20,000 nt of DNA from an uncultured virus (IMG/VR IMGVR_UViG_3300005253_000213). Lineage: Duplodnaviria > Heunggongvirae > Uroviricota > Caudoviricetes. The stretch is from IMG/VR virus record IMGVR_UViG_3300005253_000213; one strand, written 5' to 3'. The notes under the pieces were generated by a model. That model saw nothing but the letters and a program-made list of their open reading frames with translations, was not told the origin of the DNA and did not search any database. The position numbers and the translations under genes are program-made. Of this stretch, positions 1-20,000 are shown piece by piece (positions within the stretch are counted from its first letter, which is position 1; each line of letters starts with the position of its first letter).

Positions 1-2910
1 ACTCGTGCCGAAGAGCTGTTCCCACCGACGCTCACGTGGGAGATCTCGGCGCAACTTCAGGGCATAGACGTTTCGGAGCTGCTGACTCGTGCCAGCCGCG
101 GATCGGTGACGCTCAACGTCATCGATTTGAAGGGCAAAGGTGGCAAGCCTGATGTGCGTCGAGATGTTACCACCATTCCAGGTCATATCTGGGGTGGTTA
201 CCCCGGCGAACCGCGGCATGCCGACGTAATGATCATCGGGAAGCGTCCCGGTGATGACGAGATGGCGTCAGGCAGAAATCTGCAGGGCAATAGCGGTATC
301 GAACTCGCCAGGGTTTTCAGGAAGTGTGGGCTACCGTATCAGAGTTTCTGGGTCACGAACATAGTCCAGTTCCTGCCGCCCGATGGAGGAAAGAACCTCA
401 AAGCTCACCACAGGCAAGACTGCGCAACGTTGCTTGCGCAGGAGCTGCAGGCCGTCAGGCCGAAGTACATTCTGTTGCTGGGCTCCGATGCAGTGAAGTT
501 CCTTTTCGGGCGCAAGGCAACGATGACGAGTCTGCGTGGGGCAGTGCTCAACTTCAAGTACGACGAGGTTGGCGTACTTCCAACGCGTGACTACGGAAAC
601 GATCTCGATGTCATTACTACGGAGTTCAGCAAGGCACAGGTCATGGTCACGACGCATACAGCAGCAATTCTTCGTGAGCCTTCGCTCGTGCCTGGCTTCG
701 AAAAGGACATCGAGCTGTTTGCCGACCTCATACATGGCAGGCGTGGAACACAGCCGCCGATCGATCAGGTCAACAACTACCAGTACATCCGTGACGCGGA
801 GACGTTGAATGCGCTTGTCGATCGGCTCATTGCAGAGAACTACACCAGCATCTCGATCGACTGCGAGTGGGGCGGCACCAAGTTCACCAGCGGCTATCTC
901 CGAACGATCCAGTTCTCGTGGGCTGCGGGGCAGGCCGCTGTTGTCATACTTCGCGACTGCGAACACGGTCGAACACCTGTTTTCAAACCGGCTATCATCA
1001 ATGCCATCGAAGCCATACGGCGGCTGATCGATCGGCCCGGCGTAAAACTCTGGGGTCAGAATATGCGCTCCGACGCGCTCTGGCTCGAAGACTTCGGCCT
1101 TCCTGTGATGAAGCGCTTCGCGTTCGACACCATGTTGGCTGATCACGTCATCAACGAGAGCTGGGAGCACGGTCTGTTGGCACTCACGGTACGGTATACG
1201 AATATGGGCCGGTACGACTTCGAGCTTCAGAGCTGGCTCAAGCTGAATCCGCAACCTAAAGACGCCGGCTACGCGAACATACCGGATGCCATTCTGCATC
1301 CCTACAGTGCAGCTGATGCAGATGCGGTGTTCAGAATCACGCCGGTCCTTGTCGACATCCTTGGCCGTTCAGAGAACGCTGACATCGCCTGGCTCTTCTA
1401 CCAGATTGTGATGCCGGCGAGTCATCCCATCCACGAGATGGAGCGAACGGGCATGCTTGTTGATCCGGAGCGGATGGTAGATCTTTTATGGAAGTACGAC
1501 GCGAAGAAGAAAGAGATCCTGAAGGAGCTGCGCGCCAAGATCAACTGGCCCGAGTTCAATCCGCGCTCCTGGCCGCAGAAGCAGACGTTGCTGTTCGGTC
1601 CCAAGCAGGACGGCATGCTAGGCATGACGCCCATCAAGACGACCGAGAAGCCATCGCGTGAGTGGTCCGAGGTCATGAAGCTGCCAACTGAAGAGCGGGA
1701 GCGGCTGAATGCGGCTACTGACAGTGAAACGCTGAATCTGCTCTGGATCGATGCACCGGACGACTTCACGAAGGCTGTCATTCTCAAGCTCGAACACTTC
1801 CAGACGATCGACCAGATCACGAAGAACTTCCTTCGGCTGCCGAAGGGATACACCGAAACTGACGAGCTCAACGTCGCGTTCGATCGTGACATCTACGTGA
1901 GCGGCTTGCTGGGACACATCGATGACGACGGACGGATCCGGACAACAATTTCGCAGCTCAAGGAGACTGGTCGTTACAGCTCCAGCCGCCCAAACCTCCA
2001 GAACATCAGCAAACGGCAGGAGCCGCGCTACCGCGAGATCATGGGCGAGGCCATTCCGACGATTCGTTCCTGCTTCGTACACAGTCCAGGACATGTACTG
2101 GTCGAGGCCGACTACAAGTCCGCCGAGATCGTCACGCTGGCATATCTCAGTAACGATCCGCAGCTCATCGAGGATGCGCTCGGCCCGGTGAAGCTGCATG
2201 CCAAGGTCGCCGTCGATCTTCTTGGTGCGCCATGTAGTTACGAGGAAGTTGCGAAGAAGTTCGAGCATCTCTACGTTGGTGCCAAGAACATCAACTTTGG
2301 CATCCCCTATCAGCGTGGCGCCAGAGCAATCGCACGCCAGGTGAATCGCGAGACCAAGGGTAAGGCAAACATGACGGGTGACGAAGCCCAGGGGATCATC
2401 AACAACTGGTATGCGCGCTATGCCCGTGTCAGGTCGTTGGTGGATCGATGCAAGCGAGGAGTTCAACGAAAGCCACACTGGATTCCGAACCCATGGGGGC
2501 GTAGGCGGCGCTTCTATGTTTCGCCGAGTCAGTCTGTCATGGCGGCACAGGAGCGGGAGGCAGTCAACTTCCCGATTCAGAGCACAGTTGCCGAGGCGCT
2601 CAGTAAGGCGCTCTTCAATCTGTATCAGTATCGGCGACTGCATCCCGCATACAATTTCAAGATCCTGCTGGCTATTCACGATGCGATCCTCTTCGATGTG
2701 CCGGTAGAGATCTTGGATGAGTTCATCGACAGTGTTCTTCCGCTGTGCATGGTGCACGGCGTCGAGATACCGTCATGTGCATTCTACGGGTCGCCTACGT
2801 TCAAGCTCGACATCGATACTGACATAACGCTCAGATGGGGTGAGCAACCGCAGCGCGAACATCTTGAAGTACGTGGCGTACCGGAACGATTTCTTCCGAA
2901 GGTAGGATGA
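1..2910 (+). CDS. polA: Family A DNA polymerase with N-terminal UDG-family-4-like domain and 3'-5' exonuclease (SPO1-type architecture); possibly 5'-truncated by the window
   Basis: Frame 1 has no stop from base 1 to the GTG at 106, so the true start may be upstream. UDG-like motifs: VMIIGKRPGDDE, WVTNIV, LLLGSDA, TTHTAAILR. Exo motifs: IDCE, GQNMRSD, YSAAD. Pol motifs: ETGRYSSSRPNLQNI, A (ADYKSAE), B (AKNINFGIPY), NFPIQS, C (IHDA). Confidence 0.95.
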   Translation, partial: TRAEELFPPTLTWEISAQLQGIDVSELLTRASRGSVTLNVIDLKGKGGKPDVRRDVTTIPGHIWGGYPGEPRHADVMIIGKRPGDDEMASGRNLQGNSGIELARVFRKCGLPYQSFWVTNIVQFLPPDGGKNLKAHHRQDCATLLAQELQAVRPKYILLLGSDAVKFLFGRKATMTSLRGAVLNFKYDEVGVLPTRDYGNDLDVITTEFSKAQVMVTTHTAAILREPSLVPGFEKDIELFADLIHGRRGTQPPIDQVNNYQYIRDAETLNALVDRLIAENYTSISIDCEWGGTKFTSGYLRTIQFSWAAGQAAVVILRDCEHGRTPVFKPAIINAIEAIRRLIDRPGVKLWGQNMRSDALWLEDFGLPVMKRFAFDTMLADHVINESWEHGLLALTVRYTNMGRYDFELQSWLKLNPQPKDAGYANIPDAILHPYSAADADAVFRITPVLVDILGRSENADIAWLFYQIVMPASHPIHEMERTGMLVDPERMVDLLWKYDAKKKEILKELRAKINWPEFNPRSWPQKQTLLFGPKQDGMLGMTPIKTTEKPSREWSEVMKLPTEERERLNAATDSETLNLLWIDAPDDFTKAVILKLEHFQTIDQITKNFLRLPKGYTETDELNVAFDRDIYVSGLLGHIDDDGRIRTTISQLKETGRYSSSRPNLQNISKRQEPRYREIMGEAIPTIRSCFVHSPGHVLVEADYKSAEIVTLAYLSNDPQLIEDALGPVKLHAKVAVDLLGAPCSYEEVAKKFEHLYVGAKNINFGIPYQRGARAIARQVNRETKGKANMTGDEAQGIINNWYARYARVRSLVDRCKRGVQRKPHWIPNPWGRRRRFYVSPSQSVMAAQEREAVNFPIQSTVAEALSKALFNLYQYRRLHPAYNFKILLAIHDAILFDVPVEILDEFIDSVLPLCMVHGVEIPSCAFYGSPTFKLDIDTDITLRWGEQPQREHLEVRGVPERFLPKVG

Positions 2911-11190: not shown

Positions 11191-11283
11191 CGGGTGGTCA
11201 TCAGCATCCTGTTTGGGGCCGCCTCCACGTGAGTAAGCATATTGCATGCAGGTAGAGGACGCAAGCGAAGGAAAGAGGTTATC

Positions 11284-11889
11284 ATGAAACGAACATACAT
11301 GAAAACTGTCAAGCAGCCAGATCGCCAACCGTTTCCGCTCTCAAAACAAGCGGTCAAGGCTATGTATTATGAGGAGCACGTGAGCATGTGCGAGATAGGG
11401 AAGAAGGCGAAGCGCTCCAGACAGTGCGTAGCTCGGTGGATGACATATTGGGGATTCCAGCGTCGCACATCTCTCGAAGGGCTTCGTCTAGCGAGGAAGG
11501 ATGCTGCACACGGTCCTAACTGGAAAGGCGGAGAGTGGTTTCAGCCCAGCTCAGGTTATTGGGTTGTCTATGCTCCAAGTCATCCTTATGCGAGCACACG
11601 AAACACCATTCGTCGTTGCCGCGCTGTTGCAGAAGAGCGGATTGGCCGCTTGTGTACTGAACAAGAGGTAGTACATCATCTTGATTTCGACAAGGCTAAC
11701 GATGAGCCAGAAAATCTGTGTGTACTTTCGAAGAGGCTACATGCGCTTCTTCACATGGCATTGGGGCGGGTTGGCGCTGCCAAACTACTGCGGCGAAAAT
11801 GCCCTAACCTGCCGTCTATCACAGCAAAACTGGTCAAGCTGGTGTATACCGATCGGGTTGCTGAGGTAACCATCAATGAAAGGAGATAG
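11284..11889 (+). CDS. Free-standing HNH (HNH_3-like) homing endonuclease with N-terminal HTH
   Basis: HGPNWKGG, YAPSHPYA and VVHHLDFDKANDEPENL...HALLH. gaggt SD; visibly more AT-rich than its neighbours. Confidence 0.85.
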   Translation: MKRTYMKTVKQPDRQPFPLSKQAVKAMYYEEHVSMCEIGKKAKRSRQCVARWMTYWGFQRRTSLEGLRLARKDAAHGPNWKGGEWFQPSSGYWVVYAPSHPYASTRNTIRRCRAVAEERIGRLCTEQEVVHHLDFDKANDEPENLCVLSKRLHALLHMALGRVGAAKLLRRKCPNLPSITAKLVKLVYTDRVAEVTINERR

Positions 11890-13605: not shown

Positions 13606-14126
13606 ATGCGAGAATCAAGTTCAGCCTGGTTTCAGCCAGTACGCATCACTGCGACAACTGCAGCCGGGAACACAAGGCTGCGGCTCTGCACGGTATCGCC
13701 AATCTCTTTGATCGGCTTGAGCCTGGCGGTACCGTACCGTCGGGTGAGTGTCCCGAGTGTGGTGCGCTCTGCTACCCGGTAGAGACCGTTCAGCAGCGCC
13801 GAAAACGCCGACGCAGGCGGCAACTGGCAGCTTGCGATACTTGCAGTGAGTACTGCCAGTCTTCCGCAGCGGTTCTGATATGCTATGCCTGCGGTGAGAC
13901 AACGTGCATGGATTGCAGCAGGCTTTTGCTGGACCACGGCTACTCACACAGGTACATTCGCGTCTGCGCGAACTGCCTGGAAATCTGGCCCGAACGGTTT
14001 GGGCTTACGGCCGACGATGCGCCGGACAGCCACTTCTTGCTTCAGTTCATACCGGAACAACCGACTGACCTGAAGGAGTTCAGGGATGAACTGATCGAGA
14101 TAGGAAGGAAGAACGGATGTACCTGA
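13602..14126 (+). CDS. Multi-CxxC Zn-finger protein
   Basis: ATGA overlap. Six CxxC pairs (CDNC, CPEC, CDTC, CYAC, CMDC, CANC) with an Arg run between the second and third. Confidence 0.75.
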   Translation: MNARIKFSLVSASTHHCDNCSREHKAAALHGIANLFDRLEPGGTVPSGECPECGALCYPVETVQQRRKRRRRRQLAACDTCSEYCQSSAAVLICYACGETTCMDCSRLLLDHGYSHRYIRVCANCLEIWPERFGLTADDAPDSHFLLQFIPEQPTDLKEFRDELIEIGRKNGCT

Positions 14127-14407
14127 CATGTTTGGCATGCAGGGAGCGGGTTGAGACACAACATCGTGATCTCGATCGCGCAATGCGGGAAACGAAGTAC
14201 CGCCCGATATTTCCCGAGAAGGGTGTGAGGTGGCTCTGCAGCAAGTGCGCTGCCAAGGCAGAAGAGCACGCGGCAGCGCTGCTGGAGCTACTCAAGGGTG
14301 AGATAGCGCCGCTCTGGCATCTGGTATCCGAGAAGCGCCGGCTCAAGATCGTGAGTGACAATGCCCCTGATACCGATAGCGCTGAAACAAGCGGACAGGG
14401 AGCCTAA
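14117..14407 (+). CDS. Small Zn-ribbon hypothetical protein
   Basis: CLAC...CSKC; purine-rich SD upstream. Confidence 0.65.
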   Translation: MYLTCLACRERVETQHRDLDRAMRETKYRPIFPEKGVRWLCSKCAAKAEEHAAALLELLKGEIAPLWHLVSEKRRLKIVSDNAPDTDSAETSGQGA

Positions 14408-14915
14408 CGCTCACTGGTGCTTCATTGGTGATATGCGCATCCTCTTCTCATACGAGACACCCGTTGCTTTCGAGCGCGGGTCAGTTCGTTGTGTGAGCAA
14501 GATGCGCGTCACCAAGACAACGCGCCGGCAGCTTTCCAGGCTCTGCGCGAAGTGGCCGGCGCAAGAACATGATGAGCTACTGCGGTTGATCGCTGACAAC
14601 CTGCTCGTCATTATCAAGGATCTCAAGGGCGGTTACGACATCGTCCATGAGTCCCGGCAGTACAACACTATTCTCACTGACCTCGTTGACATGCTTGGTA
14701 CACTTGATGACCAAGACTGGGACGATGTTGGGCGGCTCAAGCAGGCGGTCGATCAAGTGCATTCGGCCGCCCTTGCTGCGATGCTCAACTTGACCGGAAC
14801 CAGAGGAGATCCAAAGGTGCTGTTTTCGACAACGTCGAGTGGGATACTGCTGAAAGCACTGGTTGACAGGGTTGCTGCGGGCAAGCTTGTACCGAACCCA
14901 GCGGTGTCACGATGA
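14361..14915 (+). CDS. Hypothetical phage protein
   Basis: FSYETPVA...TKTT..Q resembles a pattern seen in small phage proteins; start uncertain (14355 or 14361). Confidence 0.65.
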   Translation: MPLIPIALKQADREPNAHWCFIGDMRILFSYETPVAFERGSVRCVSKMRVTKTTRRQLSRLCAKWPAQEHDELLRLIADNLLVIIKDLKGGYDIVHESRQYNTILTDLVDMLGTLDDQDWDDVGRLKQAVDQVHSAALAAMLNLTGTRGDPKVLFSTTSSGILLKALVDRVAAGKLVPNPAVSR

Positions 14916-15244
14916 ACTTCTTCGACGAAGCAACGTGGGGACCGATCGTCAACGAGCTCGACAGGCGTACTCGTTACTGGCTGCAGGCTCGTCAGGCTGC
15001 GTGGCAGTTCTTCACAGAGGCAGTACGTGAGCTTCTGAAAGACGAGATCGAGATCAGCATGAAGCTCGTTGTTGAGATGGCTCGGTACAACGCTCGAAAG
15101 GTCGGCATTGGCGTGCGGATTTCAAACAGCTACACTACCTATGTCCGTGATCTGATATGTGTGGAGCTGCCCGCGGCCGAGAAGTATCTGACTGGTGGAC
15201 GGCGTAAGGTCAAGGACGAGGACGAACTGAGTCTGGAGGACTAA
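14912..15244 (+). CDS. Hypothetical phage protein
   Basis: ATGA overlap upstream and TAATG overlap downstream. Confidence 0.7.
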   Translation: MNFFDEATWGPIVNELDRRTRYWLQARQAAWQFFTEAVRELLKDEIEISMKLVVEMARYNARKVGIGVRISNSYTTYVRDLICVELPAAEKYLTGGRRKVKDEDELSLED

Positions 15245-15960
15245 TGTTCGTGGATATTTACTGCCTGCTGTACGGTGATCACGCACGGCTGCACCTCCGG
15301 CTGTTGAAGAGCCTTGTCAGGTATCTGCCATCGGGCGAGGCTCATGTCGTTATCTGGGCGAATGTTGTCTGTCATCGAACAGCAAAATGGCTCCACGATC
15401 ATGCGCCCGAGGATTGGGATCTCGTTTTCAGTGAAGAGAACGTGCCAAAGTACACGGCTATGCGAAAGATGCTTCACGAAACGCATAAGCCAACGACACC
15501 TTGGATCGTCTGGTTTGACGACGATTCTCATGTTGTGCAACCAGACTGGTGGTCCAAGACAAGGAAGTACATCGAAGAGAAGGAGTCGGAGAGCATCGTA
15601 TACTTCGGGGAGCGGTGGTACGTTCATCACTTACCCGGTCAGCCAGAGTTCATCAAGAAAGCAAGCTGGTACGCAGGCAGAGCTTGGGAGCTGTGTCCGA
15701 CCAGGAAGAAAGGCGTGCGGAAGCCCGGAATTACTTTTGCAACCGGCGCCTACTGGTGGCTGAGAACCGATGTAATGAAGCGACTGGACTGGCCGGATAT
15801 GCGATTACGGCATAATGGCGGGGACACATTGCTCGGTGAGGCGGTGAGGCAAAGCGGTTTGCCTTTTCACAACTTTCACTATGGCGTAAAGGTCAACGAC
15901 GCACTGCGGCGCGGCTATCACGAGAAGCCAGCAGGAGCGAGCGTCAACGTTCGGCGATAG
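15244..15960 (+). CDS. Glycosyltransferase, GT-A fold (GT2-like)
   Basis: WIVWFDDDSHV DxD motif after a hydrophobic strand, SEENVPK, FATGAYW and GGDTLLG; ggagga SD. Confidence 0.75.
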   Translation: MFVDIYCLLYGDHARLHLRLLKSLVRYLPSGEAHVVIWANVVCHRTAKWLHDHAPEDWDLVFSEENVPKYTAMRKMLHETHKPTTPWIVWFDDDSHVVQPDWWSKTRKYIEEKESESIVYFGERWYVHHLPGQPEFIKKASWYAGRAWELCPTRKKGVRKPGITFATGAYWWLRTDVMKRLDWPDMRLRHNGGDTLLGEAVRQSGLPFHNFHYGVKVNDALRRGYHEKPAGASVNVRR

Positions 15961-15983
15961 GTAAAATGAAAGGACGGAATAGA

Positions 15984-16283
15984 ATGGCCAGGAGGCGAAC
16001 TCGGAAGAGCGCACAGATACCAGATAGCGCCGGTAAGGAGCTTCTGATCTGTGACCCCAGAACAGCGTGCAAACCTGATCTGACTGCGGCAATCTGTATG
16101 ATCGCAACGAAAGTATCGAAAGTGGACCTGAATCACGCGACTACCTATGTGGTAGGAGTAGGCACCCGCACTCGCAGGCAGCTCGTTGCGGAACTCGACG
16201 TTGCGCTCCAGACAGCGAACCGCCAGGGTTACACGGTGAATTACTACGGTCCGACCGACTCGCAGGACGACTTGGAGCTCTAG
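15984..16283 (+). CDS. Hypothetical protein
   Basis: Fills the gap between the GT and HNH genes; start 15966 or 15984. Confidence 0.6.
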   Translation: MARRRTRKSAQIPDSAGKELLICDPRTACKPDLTAAICMIATKVSKVDLNHATTYVVGVGTRTRRQLVAELDVALQTANRQGYTVNYYGPTDSQDDLEL

Positions 16284-16353
16284 CTGAAGGAGAATGTTCG
16301 TAGGTAAGAGAAGCAATCGATCTGTGATTGCTGGTACGAAGGGATAATCAGTC

Positions 16354-17007
16354 ATGAAGATATGTCCCGATTGTGGGCTTGAGAAGGCATTGAATGCCTT
16401 TCGTAAGGATACAAGATACAGGGATGGGCGGGGTTCTTACTGCAGGCCATGCACACGCAAGCGTTCAAAGCAGTGGCGGTGTGCGCATTCAGCACGAGCA
16501 AAGGCAGTGAGTGCGTGCTACTACAAGCGGCATTCGAAACGGCTGACAGCAGTGCATGCGCGCTGGGCAAAAGCACACCCAAACGCGTGTAGAGCATATG
16601 CAAGCCGCTACAGGGGGGAGAATCCAGAAAAACGGCGTGCGAGCGTTACTCGCTGGGCTAGAACGCACCCAACGCAGGTTCGCGAGAATGGTCGCTGCCG
16701 CCGTGCATGGAAACAAGCTGTGAATGAGAATTTCACAGCTGAAATGGACCAGTTCGTCCACGAGTTCTGGGGATACCAGTGCGCTGTTTGCAGAACATTC
16801 GAGGAGCTATGCGTAGATCACTGGCTTCCGCTCTCGAAAGGGTTCCCACTAACAACGGGGAACGCTGCTCTGCTTTGCAGCTCGTGTAACAGTAAGAAGG
16901 GTGCCAAGCTGCCAGAAGCTGTCTACAACTGGAAGTTCGTGAAGGCAGTGGAGCAGCACCTTCACAAACAAACACAACAGTGGTCAGCCGTAATAGAGGC
17001 CGCTTGA
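16354..17007 (+). CDS. HNH endonuclease, copy 1 (Zn knuckle + five 15-aa repeats + HNH)
   Basis: N-terminal CPDC/CRPC; CAVC..DHWLPLSKG..N..LLCSSCN.KK. Confidence 0.9.
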   Translation: MKICPDCGLEKALNAFRKDTRYRDGRGSYCRPCTRKRSKQWRCAHSARAKAVSACYYKRHSKRLTAVHARWAKAHPNACRAYASRYRGENPEKRRASVTRWARTHPTQVRENGRCRRAWKQAVNENFTAEMDQFVHEFWGYQCAVCRTFEELCVDHWLPLSKGFPLTTGNAALLCSSCNSKKGAKLPEAVYNWKFVKAVEQHLHKQTQQWSAVIEAA

Positions 17008-17022
17008 AAGGAGGTCAAAACA

Positions 17023-17580
17023 ATGCACGCAGGTGATGCAATCTGGTATCTCTATGCCGGGCTGCGTCTCATCGAACGACAACATGCGAACGAGTCGTCA
17101 ACACTCAAACTCGTGAATCACCTGCGCTCCAGCGTCAAGACGCTTGGAGAGCATTGTGGCGTACCCGAGCCATCCGAGGACGATTACACGAAACTCTCTG
17201 TCGCGTTAGAGAATTTCGACGACAACGGGGATGACTTGAGTATGGAAGCCGATGTAGAGTACGCCACAGATCAACTGCCGCGCAAAACGAGTCGCGGCAA
17301 GTACAGCGATCCGAGCACCGTCGAAGCAGCTGTGCAGTTCGTCGACGAGATGGTCAACAGTGGTTGCTTCGACTGGGCGGACTTCGTTTGCATGATTCAA
17401 GAGCAGCTCGGCCGCGACAGCCCGTTCATCACGTCCAAGCAGTTCAAGGCGCTGAAGAACATCGCTGTACGCGGCAAGGTCGATGTTGGTGAAGATGAGG
17501 ACGAGTCGTGGTGGGATCTGTTCGAAGACGAACATCCCGAGGTGGCGAAAATAGTGCTGGAGCAATCGGAACTGGCCTAG
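17023..17580 (+). CDS. Acidic hypothetical protein
   Basis: aaggaggt SD; strongly Asp/Glu-rich. Confidence 0.8.
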   Translation: MHAGDAIWYLYAGLRLIERQHANESSTLKLVNHLRSSVKTLGEHCGVPEPSEDDYTKLSVALENFDDNGDDLSMEADVEYATDQLPRKTSRGKYSDPSTVEAAVQFVDEMVNSGCFDWADFVCMIQEQLGRDSPFITSKQFKALKNIAVRGKVDVGEDEDESWWDLFEDEHPEVAKIVLEQSELA

Positions 17581-17606
17581 CTCCGGCCGAACGAGAGGAC
17601 TACCGT

Positions 17607-18086
17607 ATGGAAGTTCGAGAACGCATTGCGCTCGTCATCGATTTTGAGCGCAGACTCGGAGCAGATGTTATCAGGAGCACGCCAGGGATTCCAGCTCCAT
17701 CCGAGCTGAGGCACAGAGCTCGTCTGGTTCTTGACGAGGCGCTTGAACTGTGTGAGGCGCTGGGTGTCAAGGTCAGTCTTCTTGGTGATGATCGTGACAT
17801 CTGCAAGCGTCCACTCAAGTACGAGACGGAGCGTCCACCAGACATCGTAAAGGTGGCCGATTCGCTGAACGATATCGAGTACGTAGTATACGGGACAGTA
17901 ACTTCGTTTGGCATTCAGGAAGCAACTGATGAGCTTTTTCAGGAAGTACATCGATCGAATCTGGCGAAGTTGGAGAGCGGTATAGTGAGGGATGGAAAGC
18001 CAGTGAAGCCAGCTGGCTGGCAACCGCCCGACTTGCGGGGCATTCTCCAGCGGAGATTCCCCAAGCGAGCGTTACTGTTTCGATAA
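17607..18086 (+). CDS. MazG-like/DR2231-type (PRA-PH superfamily) nucleoside-triphosphate pyrophosphohydrolase
   Basis: R.RLVLDEALEL, VADSLNDIEYVVYG, FQEVHRSNLAK and DGKPVKP.GW.PP; gagagga SD precedes ATG 17607. Confidence 0.88.
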   Translation: MEVRERIALVIDFERRLGADVIRSTPGIPAPSELRHRARLVLDEALELCEALGVKVSLLGDDRDICKRPLKYETERPPDIVKVADSLNDIEYVVYGTVTSFGIQEATDELFQEVHRSNLAKLESGIVRDGKPVKPAGWQPPDLRGILQRRFPKRALLFR

Positions 18087-18123
18087 GGCGGTTGATCGCA
18101 TGGAAAGAGGGAGGAGGCGTATC

Positions 18124-18378
18124 ATGCCGGAGAAGGAGAAGCCCGGTTCTCTGGTTGAGGACACGCAGACGGTTGTCTGCCAAGCCTGTGGAGGGAGGAT
18201 GGTCACATACACTAAGGGGGACGGTCCTGTAGCGGGTTGCCTGCTTCTCCTCCTCGGTCTGGTCCTCAGCACGATTCTCATCGGCATTCCGCTGATCGCA
18301 TGGGGCATCTACGTCATGGTTCGGCAGCATAAGTTCTGGCGCTGCGCTTCTTGCGGAACGGTCATTCCGAGAACGTGA
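18124..18378 (+). CDS. Small membrane protein with LITAF-like CxxC-hydrophobic-CxxC layout
   Basis: CQAC, about 30 hydrophobic residues, then HKFWRCASC; ggaggagg SD. Confidence 0.75.
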   Translation: MPEKEKPGSLVEDTQTVVCQACGGRMVTYTKGDGPVAGCLLLLLGLVLSTILIGIPLIAWGIYVMVRQHKFWRCASCGTVIPRT

Positions 18379-18408
18379 TATCTGCTCCGGTCAGTGACCC
18401 GAAGGTAG

Positions 18409-18437
18409 TTGACTGCAGATGAGCTGATTCATATAAT
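18409..18437 (+). promoter_or_regulatory. Sigma70-type promoter upstream of HNH copy 2
   Basis: TTGACT (18409-18414), 17-nt spacer, TATAAT (18432-18437). Confidence 0.8.
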
Positions 18438-18459
18438 CAGCGAAAGGAGTCAGTTAGCC

Positions 18460-19068
18460 ATGAAAGTGTGCGCTAGCTGTAAGATTGAGAAGCCATTGAG
18501 TGCGTTCTACAAGAACGCAAAAGGGAAAGGTGGGCGACATTCTCGCTGTAAGGTATGTGTTGGTAAGACAAGACATGCCTGGCGGATAACCAATTTGACC
18601 CGAGTCAAGGCGGTTGATGCGTGTTACCGCAAAGAACACGCAGAGCAGGTGAGGGCAACAGTAACATACTGGCGGAAAACACATCCAGAAGAGTGTAGCG
18701 CAATTTCGAAACGCTACTATGAAAGACACCCAGAGCGGGTTCGTGTAAATGCCTGGCGTCGTCGTGCTCGAAAACGGGCTGTATCTGAAGATTTCACTGT
18801 CGAGATGGCACAGTTCGTTCGCGAGTATGGGGGGCATCAGTGCGCTGTTTGCGGGAAATCTGAGAAGCTGTGTATCGATCACTGGTTGCCGCTTTCAGCG
18901 GGGTATGCACTGACGATGGCCAACGCTGTACTGCTCTGTGGCTTGTGTAATCGCAGAAAGAGTGCTAAGCTGCCTGATACTGTCTACAAACGGAAGTTCG
19001 TAAAAACAGTGGAACGGCAGCTTCGTAAGCAAGTACAACAGTGGGCAGCTATGGTAAGGGTTGCCTGA
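18460..19068 (+). CDS. HNH endonuclease, copy 2 (Zn knuckle + four 15-aa repeats + HNH)
   Basis: aaaggag SD precedes ATG 18460. CASC/CKVC; CAVC..DHWLPLSAG..N..LLCGLCN..K. Paralog of 16354-17007. Confidence 0.9.
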   Translation: MKVCASCKIEKPLSAFYKNAKGKGGRHSRCKVCVGKTRHAWRITNLTRVKAVDACYRKEHAEQVRATVTYWRKTHPEECSAISKRYYERHPERVRVNAWRRRARKRAVSEDFTVEMAQFVREYGGHQCAVCGKSEKLCIDHWLPLSAGYALTMANAVLLCGLCNRRKSAKLPDTVYKRKFVKTVERQLRKQVQQWAAMVRVA

Positions 19069-19080
19069 AACGGAGGTACA

Positions 19081-19431
19081 GTGGCAACGCCCGATCATTT
19101 CAAAGAACGACGGCAGGCGAAACGAGAAGCTCGGAAAGTCAGGGCCGATCGGCTGAAGAAATGGGTGCCACTTATCAAGACACTCTGTGATCGGTACGGC
19201 ATAACTGTCGCGGAAATTCCCAGCGGATTCCAACTACGTCATCAGGAGTACATCATCAACTGGTGGCTGCCAACGAACAAGATCATGATTCAGTATGCTG
19301 GCAGCGGTGAGACGCGCGAGTTCATGCCCGACGGCGAGCCGGGTGAGCCAAAGATCATTACGGCCATCAAGAAGCTCGTCGAGGTTACTCGGGGAGAAAA
19401 AGTATCGACAACGACACAGTCACCGTCCTGA
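19081..19431 (+). CDS. Hypothetical protein
   Basis: ggaggt SD precedes GTG 19081. Confidence 0.75.
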   Translation: MATPDHFKERRQAKREARKVRADRLKKWVPLIKTLCDRYGITVAEIPSGFQLRHQEYIINWWLPTNKIMIQYAGSGETREFMPDGEPGEPKIITAIKKLVEVTRGEKVSTTTQSPS

Positions 19432-19844
19432 TACGGACGACGACGGTTTCGACCAGGTGCCGGCTGTGTGATGAACGCAATATCTCAGGCATGCCGGTCA
19501 TCTGTGTCGATAACCCGTTCACGACGCGAATCCAACGGCGATACTACTGCACTTTCTGTTATGAAGAGCTGGTTCGCCGTGCAGCGCAGGACGTTCCTGC
19601 GCTGGAGAATGGGGCCACTGATGAGCAGAACGTCCAGCAGGTCAAAGTACTGTTGGGCGTGGATCCGGGCCGAGTTGAGCGGAAGTCTTCAACGCCGGTC
19701 ATGGATCTGAATCTCGATATCAAGGTAGCATGGCCCGCTGCGCTCCTGAACGATCGTGTGCCGTTCGCTCACTTCTACCCGCGAGGGAAGGCATTGGAAG
19801 CCCACAAGGCAGCTGCGCACTGCTGGCTATATGGGGATGACTAG
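19428..19844 (+). CDS. Hypothetical Zn-ribbon protein, start uncertain
   Basis: First ATG is at 19491, but the open frame upstream encodes CRLC, which could pair with the downstream CTFC. CTG at 19428 overlaps the previous TGA. Confidence 0.5.
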   Translation: MIRTTTVSTRCRLCDERNISGMPVICVDNPFTTRIQRRYYCTFCYEELVRRAAQDVPALENGATDEQNVQQVKVLLGVDPGRVERKSSTPVMDLNLDIKVAWPAALLNDRVPFAHFYPRGKALEAHKAAAHCWLYGDD

Positions 19845-19896
19845 CACGATCACCACAATCGGGGGTGTCCGCCTGTACGATTTGTAAGAAAACCAC

Positions 19897-19925
19897 TTGA
19901 CCTAGTGGTTGGTACTTTGTAGACT
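19897..19925 (+). promoter_or_regulatory. Sigma70-type promoter
   Basis: TTGACC (19897-19902), 17-nt spacer, TAGACT (19920-19925), in an AT-richer intergenic region. Confidence 0.65.
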
Positions 19926-19949
19926 ACCACCCATAGAAAGGGGGAACCT

Positions 19950-20000
19950 ATGAGAAGGTTCCTAGCCGTAACCATCATCGTGATGGTCGCAATGCTCACG
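19950..20000 (+). CDS. 5' end of a secreted or membrane protein (runs off the window)
   Basis: aaaggggg SD; MRRFLAVTIIVMVAMLT looks like a signal peptide. Confidence 0.6.
   Translation, partial: MRRFLAVTIIVMVAMLT

What the first reader, a model, noticed from the sequence alone, without database searches (positions are those of the whole stretch)
16474..18759. Paralogous HNH nucleases with a variable array of 15-aa repeats (5 vs 4 units): possible modular DNA reader or molecular ruler
Seen: both proteins have a 40-aa Zn knuckle, an array starting at residue 41, and a 102-aa HNH region. Copy 1 (16474-16698) reads WRCAHSARAKAVSAC/YYKRHSKRLTAVHAR/WAKAHPNACRAYASR/YRGENPEKRRASVTR/WARTHPTQVRENGRC. 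Copy 2 (18580-18759) reads WRITNLTRVKAVDAC/YRKEHAEQVRATVTY/WRKTHPEECSAISKR/YYERHPERVRVNAWR. Every unit has W/Y at position 1 (alternating) and H/N at position 5, mostly Ala at 11, with basic variable residues. The proteins are 217 and 202 aa, exactly one unit apart. The HNH regions align without gaps at about 62/102 identity by hand count, while the arrays are more diverged. Inference: the array is a tunable helical module that either reads sequence unit by unit or sets the distance between binding and cut sites.
Basis: partly seen in the sequence, partly recalled or inferred. Interest (0 to 1): 0.8.

Follow-up and report, generated by a model that had tools for sequence, protein, structure and literature searches.

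The report
Phage HNH nucleases with 15-residue helix repeats
Two mobile-looking phage HNH nuclease genes carry 5 and 4 copies of a basic 15-residue single-helix repeat that is widespread but appears in no family library searched, and it probably forms an adjustable DNA-binding arm.

Summary
HNH1 (16354-17007, 217 aa) and HNH2 (18460-19068, 202 aa) share three parts: a CxxC...CxxC zinc ribbon, an array of 15-aa units (5 vs 4), and a Cys4 HNH module that is 62/102 identical. They differ by one 15-aa gap. Period 15 is far beyond chance (z 9.0 and 8.0; 0 of 2000 shuffles).

The repeat belongs to a large family, not to this pair alone. Its consensus is [WY]-R-K-A-[NH]-P-E-K-v-R-[AE]-x-x-R-[RK]. In homologs, 140 of 158 unit spacings are multiples of 15, with 1-12 units detected per protein. 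AlphaFold2 (pLDDT 96.9) makes each unit one 14-residue helix, broken only at the N/H residue.

An array-only profile finds 608 proteins. They include Cys-less HNH, endonuclease VII, HTH and TniQ fusions, and most lack the zinc ribbon. Pfam, NCBIfam and PDB sequence searches gave no family or solved structure for the array.

HNH1 is missing from the same gene junction in 3 of 3 informative relatives. All three HNH genes in the window have low GC3.

Best reading: free-standing homing-type endonucleases with a cationic, unit-adjustable nucleic-acid-binding arm. A unit-by-unit code and a pure ruler role are both unproven. The pure ruler is weakened because the array often occurs without the ribbon.

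The parts
16354..17007 (+). HNH1 gene, 217 aa: zinc ribbon, 5-unit array and Cys4 HNH module
   Evidence: ORF. Pfam HNH scores 31.7 bits against a cut-off of 21.4. phrog_1035 matches at 1.6e-24 over residues 1-210. AF2 pLDDT is 96.9.
16354..16473 (+). HNH1 zinc ribbon (aa 1-40; C4, C7, C30, C33)
   Evidence: The four Cys are at least 90% conserved in 106 sequences. AF2 gives strands 16-18 and 26-30. VIA matches Hpy99I chain 3fc3_A at Z 5.2, rmsd 1.4, 38 residues, model 1..39.
16474..16698 (+). HNH1 array, 5 units of 15 aa (aa 41-115)
   Evidence: Unit strings. Period-15 z = 9.0. AF2 helices run 46-59, 61-74, 76-89 and 91-104, with single-residue breaks at 45, 60, 75, 90 and 105, which is repeat position 5. 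K+R 19 vs D+E 3.
16699..17007 (+). HNH1 linker helix (RRAWKQ...), beta-beta-alpha-metal HNH core and C-terminal helix (aa 116-217)
   Evidence: Invariant in 106 sequences: C143, C146, H156, C175, N179, K182. VIA Z 6-8 to HNH domains of Cas9, IscB and McrA.
18409..18437 (+). Promoter-like site just upstream of HNH2
   Evidence: TTGACT, 17 nt, TATAAT; 11 of 12 matches. AAAGGAG lies shortly upstream of the ATG at 18460. This is a consensus match only: the region has 2 such sites and shuffles give 2.5 on average.
18460..19068 (+). HNH2 gene, 202 aa: zinc ribbon, 4-unit array and Cys4 HNH module
   Evidence: ORF. Pfam HNH scores 30.4 bits against a cut-off of 21.4. phrog_1035 matches at 2.9e-28. 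47% identical to HNH1 with one 15-aa gap.
18580..18759 (+). HNH2 array, 4 units of 15 aa (aa 41-100)
   Evidence: Unit strings. Period-15 z = 8.0. K+R 14 vs D+E 7.
15966..16283 (+). Conserved gene on the 5' side of the HNH1 insertion
   Evidence: Its homologs in L009 (5705-5989) and L011 (994-1296) are followed after 9-11 bp by the homolog of 17023-17580, with no HNH gene between them.
17023..17580 (+). Conserved gene on the 3' side of the HNH1 insertion. Its first ~30 nt are a candidate homing target (inference).
   Evidence: Relatives found are 36-38% identical in protein. All start MHAGDAIW, and 23 of the first 29 coding nucleotides are invariant in 4 sequences.

Best explanation
HNH1 and HNH2 are two free-standing, homing-type HNH endonuclease genes sitting between conserved genes of a phage replication and nucleotide-metabolism module.

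Each protein has three parts:
- an N-terminal Cys4 zinc ribbon;
- a chain of cationic, proline-punctuated 15-residue units, each forming one short helix;
- a small Cys4 beta-beta-alpha-metal HNH nuclease with little specificity of its own.

The array, with the ribbon where one is present, is the nucleic-acid-binding arm that holds the nuclease on its target. Conserved Arg/Lys at positions 2, 3, 8, 10, 14 and 15 would contact the phosphate backbone. Adding or removing whole units lengthens or shortens the contacted DNA, or the reach to the cut site, by roughly 1-2.3 nm per unit.

What is shown: the architecture, the periodicity, whole-unit gain and loss, the predicted helices, the occurrence of the array with other domains, and the presence/absence of HNH1 at its site. 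What is inferred: DNA binding, homing, and the effect of unit number.
For: **Nuclease module**
- Pfam HNH scores above its cut-off for both proteins.
- The catalytic His and Asn and the four Cys are invariant in 106 homologs.
- The fold matches HNH domains of Cas9, IscB and McrA at Z 6-8.

**Array**
- Period-15 z is 9.0 and 8.0.
- 277 units were detected in 119 of 152 homologs, and 140 of 158 spacings are multiples of 15.
- Distances are quantised in 15-aa steps.
- AF2 gives one helix per unit, pLDDT 96.9, for both the 5-unit and a 9-unit protein.
- Units carry K+R 5.10 and D+E 2.23 on average over 1037 units.

**Occurrence with other domains**
- An array-only profile finds 608 proteins at E <= 1e-3 among 7999 scored.
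- Of the best 115, Pfam sees HNH in 37, HTH_38 in 5, Endonuclease_7 in 3 and TniQ in 1.
- Only 27 of the 115 have a zinc-ribbon motif before the array.
- The recognisable partners (nucleases, HTH, TniQ) are DNA-targeting domains.

**Mobility**
- 3 of 3 informative relatives (L009, L010, L011) lack an HNH gene at the HNH1 junction.
- GC3 is 0.555 (HNH1) and 0.493 (HNH2), against 0.615-0.688 in four of the five flanking genes.
- HNH1 and HNH2 are not sisters in the tree.
- A distant relative in L002 also sits inside a replication module, next to that phage's own RuvC-like resolvase gene.
Against: - No binding, cleavage or homing was tested, and no DNA complex could be modelled with the tools at hand.
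The three-dimensional path of the array is therefore unknown. It does not fit straight helices (rmsd about 10 A over 60 residues).
- Full-length matches to predicted viral proteins have low TM (at most 0.50 by the query) and mostly rmsd above 10 A. The arm may be flexible or poorly defined.
- The 3 relatives without HNH1 resemble each other more than the window, so insertion here and loss there cannot be told apart. The HNH2 site could not be examined in any relative.
- The flanking MazG-like gene also has low GC3 (0.535).
- A cationic helical array could equally bind RNA.
Confidence: 0.6

Rival explanations
1. Pure ruler or spacer. The zinc ribbon is the sequence-specific anchor. The array is a semi-rigid rod that sets the distance from binding site to cut site and does not itself bind DNA.
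For: - Length changes only in whole units.
- The helices are rich in E, K and R.
- Idealised geometry gives about 8-16 A per unit for a zigzag and 23 A for a continuous helix.
- A precedent is the linker of I-TevI acting as a distance determinant. This is recalled and comes from no call.
Against: - 88 of 115 array-bearing proteins have no zinc-ribbon motif before the array. Some begin with the array after a conserved MPYK start.
- The net charge of about +2.9 per unit is unlike near-neutral ER/K single helices.
Confidence: 0.13
2. Modular reader. Each unit reads a few base pairs through the variable stripe (positions 9, 12, 13 and 2), so unit order spells the target and unit number sets its length.
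For: - Positions 13, 12, 9, 2 and 3 hold 60% of 948 differences among 300 near-identical unit pairs, against 33% if uniform.
- They are also the highest-entropy columns.
- The array is found with several DNA-targeting domains.
- Unit number turns over quickly within a shallow clade.
Against: - There is no TALE-like pattern. Units within HNH1 share only 1-6 of 15 residues, and differences are spread over many positions.
- On an ideal helical wheel, positions 9, 12 and 13 lie on the same side as the conserved Trp. In an idealised zigzag that side faces the neighbouring helix, so these residues may be packing residues (inference).
- No pairs of array and known target exist to test a code.
Confidence: 0.13
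3. Structure-specific junction resolvase of the endonuclease VII type, serving recombination-dependent replication, with the helical array as a dimerisation or DNA-arm-binding stalk.
For: - The best PHROG is labelled 'endonuclease VII'.
- Relatives in cultured phages carry that label.
- The zinc ribbon resembles that of Hpy99I (Z 5.2).
- The window encodes a UvsX-like recombinase.
Against: - Pfam Endonuclease_7 is below its cut-off for HNH1 (17.4 vs 23.6 bits) and absent for HNH2 at E <= 1.
- There are two diverged copies, and HNH1 is dispensable in 3 of 3 relatives.
- L002 has its own RuvC-like resolvase next to its copy.
- Strong like charges argue against self-association of the arrays.
Confidence: 0.07

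Closest known systems
Zinc-ribbon HNH nicking endonucleases of phages and prophages (N.phiGamma type; PMC3592412, passages read)
   Same: A zinc ribbon joined to a [CxxC]2 HNH catalytic domain. The small HNH module has only short specificity of its own.
   Different: Those enzymes have no repeat array, and per that paper's abstract they sit next to the cos site and terminase genes. Here 60-75 residues of 15-aa units separate the ribbon from the HNH, and the genes lie in a replication module.
Free-standing HNH homing endonuclease genes of T4-like and ICP1 phages (PMC2988022 and PMC2790892: search listing only; PMC10448857: passages read)
   Same: Nuclease genes placed between conserved phage genes, present or absent among relatives, with a DNA-binding end and a nuclease end.
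   Different: [quoted passage not shown] Here the order is reversed, the HNH is of the Cys4 PF01844 type, and the binding end is a short-helix repeat.
Repetitive DNA-binding domains in T5orf172 homing endonucleases (CapR-type zinc fingers; PMC10448857, passages read)
   Same: Repeated DNA-binding modules in a homing endonuclease. In-frame gain or loss by recombination between degenerate repeats, proposed in that paper to shift specificity.
   Different: Those repeats are whole zinc-finger domains, with an example deletion of 228 bp. Here the unit is 15 aa (45 bp) and forms a single helix.
NUMOD / IENR nuclease-associated modular DNA-binding motifs (mentioned in PMC5714182, passages read; details recalled)
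   Same: Short modules, single or in tandem, attached to HNH and GIY-YIG homing endonucleases.
   Different: No NUMOD family matched either protein at E <= 1, nor any of 106 homologs at E <= 0.01.
TAL-effector-type repeat readers (recalled)
   Same: A tandem helical repeat whose copy number varies.
   Different: TAL repeats are about 34 aa with two helices, are near-identical, and have two hypervariable residues. Here the units are 15 aa with one helix and are highly diverged.
T4 endonuclease VII / Hpy99I (PF02945)
   Same: A Cys4 zinc ribbon (VIA Z 5.2, rmsd 1.4 over 38 residues to Hpy99I) and a beta-beta-alpha-metal nuclease.
   Different: Below the Pfam cut-off. Neither protein is known to me to carry such an array (recalled).

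Membership tests
HNH / His-Me finger endonuclease (PF01844) | Profile score above Pfam's gathering cut-off | tested here: met
   31.7 and 30.4 bits against a cut-off of 21.4.
HNH / His-Me finger endonuclease (PF01844) | Catalytic His, metal-binding Asn and the two CxxC zinc pairs | tested here: met
   C143, C146, H156, C175, N179 and K182 are invariant, and D155 and N170 are at least 90% conserved, in 106 sequences.
HNH / His-Me finger endonuclease (PF01844) | Beta-beta-alpha-metal fold | tested here: met
   AF2 gives strands 152-156 and 171-175 and helix 176-182. VIA Z 6-8 to HNH domains of Cas9, IscB and McrA, and Z 4.8 to Gme HNH 4h9d. This rests on a predicted model only.
T4 endonuclease VII family (PF02945) | Profile score above Pfam's cut-off | tested here: not met
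   HNH1 scores 17.4 bits against a cut-off of 23.6. HNH2 has no match at E <= 1. The PHROG label 'endonuclease VII' is an annotation only.
Free-standing homing endonuclease gene | Present or absent at one syntenic site among relatives | tested here: met
   For HNH1, 3 of 3 informative relatives (L009, L010, L011) lack it. For HNH2 this was not tested, because no relative covering its site was found.
Free-standing homing endonuclease gene | Cleaves the endonuclease-less allele and is copied into it | not testable with these tools
   Needs cleavage and co-infection assays.
NUMOD1/3/4 DNA-binding modules | Match to the Pfam NUMOD profiles | tested here: not met
   No match at E <= 1 for either protein, and none in 106 homologs at E <= 0.01. 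HMMER's filters can drop very weak matches.
TALE-like one-repeat-one-base reader | Near-identical repeats differing mainly at a few specificity residues | tested here: not met
   Units within HNH1 share 1-6 of 15 residues. In 300 near-identical pairs, the top five positions hold 60% of the differences.
ER/K single-alpha-helix spacer | Balanced acidic and basic residues in an unbroken helix | tested here: not met
   K+R 5.10 vs D+E 2.23 per unit, and the helix breaks every 15 residues. The definition of this class is recalled.

The most novel reading that the evidence does not exclude
The 15-residue unit is a new class of modular nucleic-acid-recognition repeat with one short helix per unit. 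Mobile-element nucleases (Cys4 HNH, Cys-less HNH, endonuclease VII) and a TniQ protein share it. Each unit would read a few base pairs through the variable stripe at positions 9, 12, 13 and 2. Whole-unit gain, loss and shuffling would then retarget the enzyme. That would make it a natural scaffold that could be reprogrammed, with units far shorter than TAL or PPR repeats.
Probability: 0.13. Interest if true: 0.85.

Novelty: new variant of a known kind. Interest (0 to 1): 0.6.

Why it matters
Homing endonucleases pair a weakly specific nuclease with modular DNA-binding parts, and those parts decide where mobile genes spread in phage genomes.

This repeat is short and regular, and its copy number changes by whole units. 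It is joined to at least four kinds of DNA-targeting domain in hundreds of proteins, from phages of many hosts to giant viruses. Yet no Pfam, NCBIfam or PDB entry that I could search describes it.

If it binds DNA, it explains how this large group of 'HNH endonuclease' annotations finds its targets. It would also give a simple system for asking how repeat number tunes footprint or cut distance. If it reads sequence, it could be engineered.

If it turns out to be a non-specific basic arm, the finding is a useful annotation and no more than that.

Tried and rejected
**Searches for relatives that found nothing useful**
- Megablast of 14000-20000 against phage records: no match.
- Single-protein scans of viral contigs with the MazG-like gene, HNH1 and gene 19081: one tiny match or none.
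- The GTDB genome scan with A2: none. The viral scan with A2 gave one full-length relative, L002.
- Alignment A1 was too diverse for a locus scan, so the smaller alignment A2 was used instead.
- No whole genome is held for this window.

**Searches for a known family or structure for the array**
- The word-index search with the array of P0005 alone gave only 2 hits. The array profile A4 worked.
- The Atlas search with the array part gave nothing above 0.76.
- The PDB profile search with A4 gave nothing significant. The best match is a single unit-like motif in the RecA C-terminal domain, at 5.8 bits per stretch.
- Fold searches gave only generic long or kinked helices for the array (Z <= 5).
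- PF27269 (YonG_N) appears in precomputed columns and Atlas rows but is not in the local Pfam copy. What it covers could not be checked.

**Other negative results**
- Rfam and tRNA scans of the window: none.
- Earlier-findings look-ups: nothing, plus one tool error.
- Six literature searches found no description of this repeat. This covers only the open-access library held. Supplements were not opened.

**Not done**
- Complex prediction was not used. No protein-protein claim is made, and DNA cannot be a chain there.
- Model coordinates are not exposed, so the array geometry was only estimated from ideal phi/psi values.

**Considered and rejected**
- A packaging-type HNH: the genes lie in a replication and nucleotide-metabolism module, and there are two diverged copies.
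- A recent tandem duplication: the two proteins are not sisters and the DNA has no tandem repeat.
Full report
**What is there.** The window reads as one strand of a phage replication and nucleotide-metabolism module. PHROG matches include:
- DNA polymerase at 106-2907;
- dCMP deaminase;
- a UvsX-like recombinase;
- a MazG-like pyrophosphohydrolase at about 17610-18083;
- an unrelated HNH gene at 11242-11889.

No similar DNA exists among 50,697 phage records, and no whole genome is held for the window.

The finding covers two genes, HNH1 (16354-17007, 217 aa) and HNH2 (18460-19068, 202 aa). Both pass Pfam's HNH cut-off, at 31.7 and 30.4 bits against 21.4. Neither has any Pfam or NCBIfam match over residues 1-115. 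Their best PHROG is phrog_1035, labelled 'endonuclease VII', at 1.6e-24 and 2.9e-28 over nearly the full length.

- BLASTP aligns the two proteins at 103/217 identities with one gap of exactly 15 residues.
- By part, identity is 16/40 in the zinc ribbon, at best 24/60 in the array, and 62/102 in the C-terminal region.
- The unit strings are as quoted.
- A BLOSUM62 autocorrelation of the array peaks only at period 15. It gives z 9.01 and 7.99, with 0 of 2000 shuffles reaching it. Periods 7-23 otherwise give z <= 2.07.
- The DNA shows no tandem repeat, and units within HNH1 share only 1-6 of 15 residues. The units are therefore old, not a recent slippage product.
- The 202-aa length of HNH2 rests on the ATG at 18460. 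A TTGACT-17-TATAAT site (11 of 12 matches) and an AAAGGAG precede that ATG. Homologs begin MK.C..C.

**The repeat is a family trait and changes by whole units.**

*Size of the family.* A full scan of 1.84 billion cluster representatives with HNH2 gave 31,740 proteins at E <= 1e-3 and 4,288 at E <= 1e-10. Many of these match through the HNH domain alone.

*Unit detection.* I built a unit HMM seeded from the two window proteins and three homologs, so it leans towards canonical units. It was run on the 152 proteins then in hand: the best 150 of that scan plus P0002 and P0003.
- It found 277 units of at least 6 bits in 119 of the 152 proteins.
- 140 of 158 spacings between successive units are multiples of 15: 94 at 15, 28 at 30, 12 at 45 and 6 at 60.
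- The consensus is [WY]-R-K-A-[NH]-P-E-K-v-R-[AE]-x-x-R-[RK].
- Positions 1, 5, 6 and 7 are the most conserved. Positions 9, 12 and 13 are the most variable.

*Ribbon-to-HNH distance.* I measured from the last ribbon Cys to the first HNH Cys.
- Both anchors could be placed in 129 of 152 proteins.
- The distance falls in one residue class mod 15 in 52 proteins and in three classes in 83.
- The main series is 65, 80, 95, 110, 125, 140, 155 and 170, which corresponds to 2-9 units.

*The closest relatives.* In the alignment of the 12 closest proteins, nearly all gaps in the array are blocks of whole units.

*Tree.* I built a maximum-likelihood tree of the C-terminal module from 59 rows. These were 59 of the first 60 of 152 protein ids; the remaining ids were left out to save time.
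- It gives a clade with support 98/95: (P0006,(HNH2,(P0005,(P0003,(P0002,HNH1))))).
- The end branches in that clade are at most 0.22.
- Unit numbers across it are 5, 4, 9, 4, 6 and 5.
- Unit number therefore changes faster than the nuclease module diverges. The two window genes are not each other's nearest relatives.
- Some family members carry near-identical neighbouring units, for example P0177. Expansion by duplication is therefore still going on.

**Predicted structure.** AlphaFold2 on a 106-sequence alignment (106 of the 152 proteins) gave mean pLDDT 96.9 and pTM 0.70 for HNH1.
- The model has a two-hairpin ribbon and helices at 31-44, 46-59, 61-74, 76-89, 91-104 and 106-120.
- The HNH beta-beta-alpha core and a long C-terminal helix follow.
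- The single non-helical residues 45, 60, 75, 90 and 105 are exactly repeat position 5 (N/H), followed by Pro or Ser. Each unit therefore contributes one 14-residue helix that starts at position 6.
- The 9-unit relative P0005 gave the same pattern (pLDDT 96.9, pTM 0.61). Its one joint that lacks Pro is read as continuous helix.

Fold searches agree on the two end modules:
- The HNH core matches Cas9, IscB and McrA nuclease domains at Z 6-8.
- It also matches the C-terminal domain of a threonylcarbamoyladenosine dehydratase at Z 10.7.
- The ribbon matches Hpy99I at Z 5.2, rmsd 1.4 over 38 residues.

The array matches only generic helices at Z <= 5, and it fits straight coiled coils badly (rmsd about 10 A over 60 residues). 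Matches to predicted viral proteins span the full length but reach TM of at most 0.50 by the query, and most have rmsd above 10 A. The overall path of the arm is therefore not reproducibly defined.

I could not read the model coordinates. An idealised backbone with 14 helical residues and one cap residue in the beta region gives these values:
- about 100-120 degrees between helix axes;
- about 10-16 A rise per unit;
- 23 A per unit if the helix were continuous.

This is geometry from assumed phi/psi values, not a measurement on the model.

**The array also occurs with other domains.** A profile of eleven 60-residue arrays (A4) was searched against proteins longer than 105 aa. It found 608 proteins at E <= 1e-3 among the 7,999 candidates scored.

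Of the 115 new proteins among the 120 listed hits:
- 113 have at least 3 detected units;
- Pfam sees HNH in 37, HTH_38 in 5, Endonuclease_7 in 3, TniQ in 1 and a replication-protein domain in 1. Pfam finds no family in many of the rest;
- only 27 have a zinc-ribbon motif before the array.

Examples:
- P0158 and P0174: array plus a Cys-less HNH;
- P0230: HTH_38, array and HNH;
- P0236: array plus endonuclease VII;
- P0189: TniQ with a C-terminal array;
- P0198: array plus 300 residues of unknown function;
- a group of 30 proteins of about 500 aa, with up to 12 detected units among those tabulated, on contigs of about 10 kb to 1.6 Mb, mostly over 200 kb.

Units are strongly cationic, with K+R 5.10 and D+E 2.23 on average over 1,037 units. 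The HNH1 array has 19 K+R and 3 D+E.

On an ideal helical wheel, R2, R10, R14 and K3 form one stripe. W1, A4 and the variable positions 9, 12 and 13 form the opposite side. This is my inference from 100 degrees per residue.

**Mobility.** I searched metagenome contigs with the downstream neighbour gene (17023-17577). This found one identical copy and three informative relatives at 36-38% protein identity.
- In L009 and L011, the homologs of 15244-15960 and 15966-16283 are followed after 9-11 bp by the homolog of 17023-17580.
- In L010, the homolog of 15244-15960 abuts the homolog of 17023-17580 directly.
- None of the three has an HNH gene at that junction.
- The first 29 coding nucleotides of the downstream gene are invariant at 23 positions across the four sequences. 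That makes this stretch a candidate target, by inference only.
- GC3 is 0.555 (HNH1), 0.493 (HNH2) and 0.500 (the third HNH gene). Most neighbouring genes lie at 0.62-0.71, though the MazG-like gene is also low at 0.535.
- A 35%-identical relative in viral contig L002 lies between a DNA polymerase exonuclease subunit gene and a RuvC-like resolvase gene.
- In cultured phages the relatives are at most 30% identical. Nine of the 12 records are from Streptomyces phages, labelled 'HNH endonuclease' or 'endonuclease VII'.

Two caveats apply. The three HNH-less relatives resemble each other, so the direction of the event is open. The HNH2 site was not covered by any relative.

**Mechanism.** My best reading (confidence 0.6) has three elements:
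- These are homing-type endonucleases.
- The cationic helix chain, with the ribbon where one is present, binds DNA and positions a weakly specific HNH module.
- Whole-unit gain or loss changes the length of DNA contacted, or the reach to the cut site.

Rival readings:
- *Pure ruler between ribbon and nuclease (0.13).* This fits the quantised length. It fails to explain the arrays that have no ribbon, and the strong positive charge.
- *Unit-by-unit reader (0.13).* This is not excluded. Among 300 near-identical unit pairs, positions 13, 12, 9, 2 and 3 hold 60% of 948 differences. That concentration is far from TALE-like, and these residues may pack against the neighbouring helix.
- *Endonuclease VII-type resolvase (0.07).* This is unlikely given the Pfam score, the two diverged copies and the dispensability of HNH1.

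RNA binding cannot be excluded. No known RNA family or tRNA lies in the window.

**Comparison with what is known.** Both proteins are members of the HNH / His-Me finger family, and every defining feature I could test was met. They are not members of PF02945 by Pfam's cut-off.

They work like free-standing homing endonucleases that have a modular binding end. Repeated DNA-binding modules with in-frame gain and loss have been described for other phage homing endonucleases (PMC10448857, passages read). Zinc-ribbon HNH nickases are also known (PMC3592412, passages read).

What is different here is the module itself. It is a 15-residue, one-helix, proline-punctuated basic repeat. I found no family, solved structure or paper that describes it:
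- Pfam;
- NCBIfam;
- PDB sequences;
- the Atlas;
- six literature searches.

PF27269 (YonG_N), seen in precomputed columns, could not be inspected. Subscription journals are not in the library searched. I therefore rate the finding a new variant of a known kind, with interest 0.6.

Noticed in passing
window 11242-11889 (+): A third HNH endonuclease gene of a different family (phrog_7545, 9.8e-17), with no 15-aa units and low GC3 (0.500). The window therefore has three HNH genes within 8 kb.
   Followed up: partly
P0164, P0165, P0171 and others (30 of 115 array-profile hits): A group of proteins of about 500 aa, with up to 12 detected units among those tabulated. They have a conserved MPYK-type start, no Pfam domain and an acidic C-terminal part. 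They sit on contigs of about 10 kb to 1.6 Mb, mostly over 200 kb, so they are probably cellular genomes.
   Followed up: partly
P0189 (510 aa): A TniQ domain (PF06527, 1.7e-08, residues 6-159) is followed at the C-terminus by the same 15-aa units. This links the array to a transposon target-selection protein.
   Followed up: partly
window 17023-17051; L009 6001-6029; L011 1306-1334; L010 355-383: The first 29 coding nucleotides of the gene downstream of HNH1 are invariant at 23 positions in four sequences whose proteins are only 36-38% identical. This may be the homing target, or it may only reflect the conserved MHAGDAIW start.
   Followed up: partly
PDB chains 3cmu_A and 1aa3_A (RecA residues 275-299): The RecA C-terminal domain has a single unit-like motif (W-L-K-D-N-P-E and following helix). 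The match to the array profile is not significant (5.8 bits per stretch; E 0.54 for 1aa3). It is the only solved look-alike of the helix-cap-Pro corner.
   Followed up: no
BFVD hits Q5UPT5, A0A1V0SI84, V9SGI5: Full-length structural matches extend to giant-virus proteins (Mimivirus L246, Klosneuvirus, Tunisvirus). They also include phages of Bacillus, Gordonia, Flavobacterium, Listeria, Klebsiella and a crAss-like phage.
   Followed up: no
L002 3746-5853: A 35%-identical relative lies between a DNA polymerase exonuclease subunit gene and a RuvC-like resolvase gene in a viral contig.
   Followed up: partly
VIA hits 9hmo_A and 9hmp_A, aligned to model residues 107-213: The best structural match of the HNH module plus its flanking helices is the C-terminal domain of yeast threonylcarbamoyladenosine dehydratase (Z 10.7, rmsd 2.6, 102 residues). 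That is higher than any bona fide nuclease.
   Followed up: no
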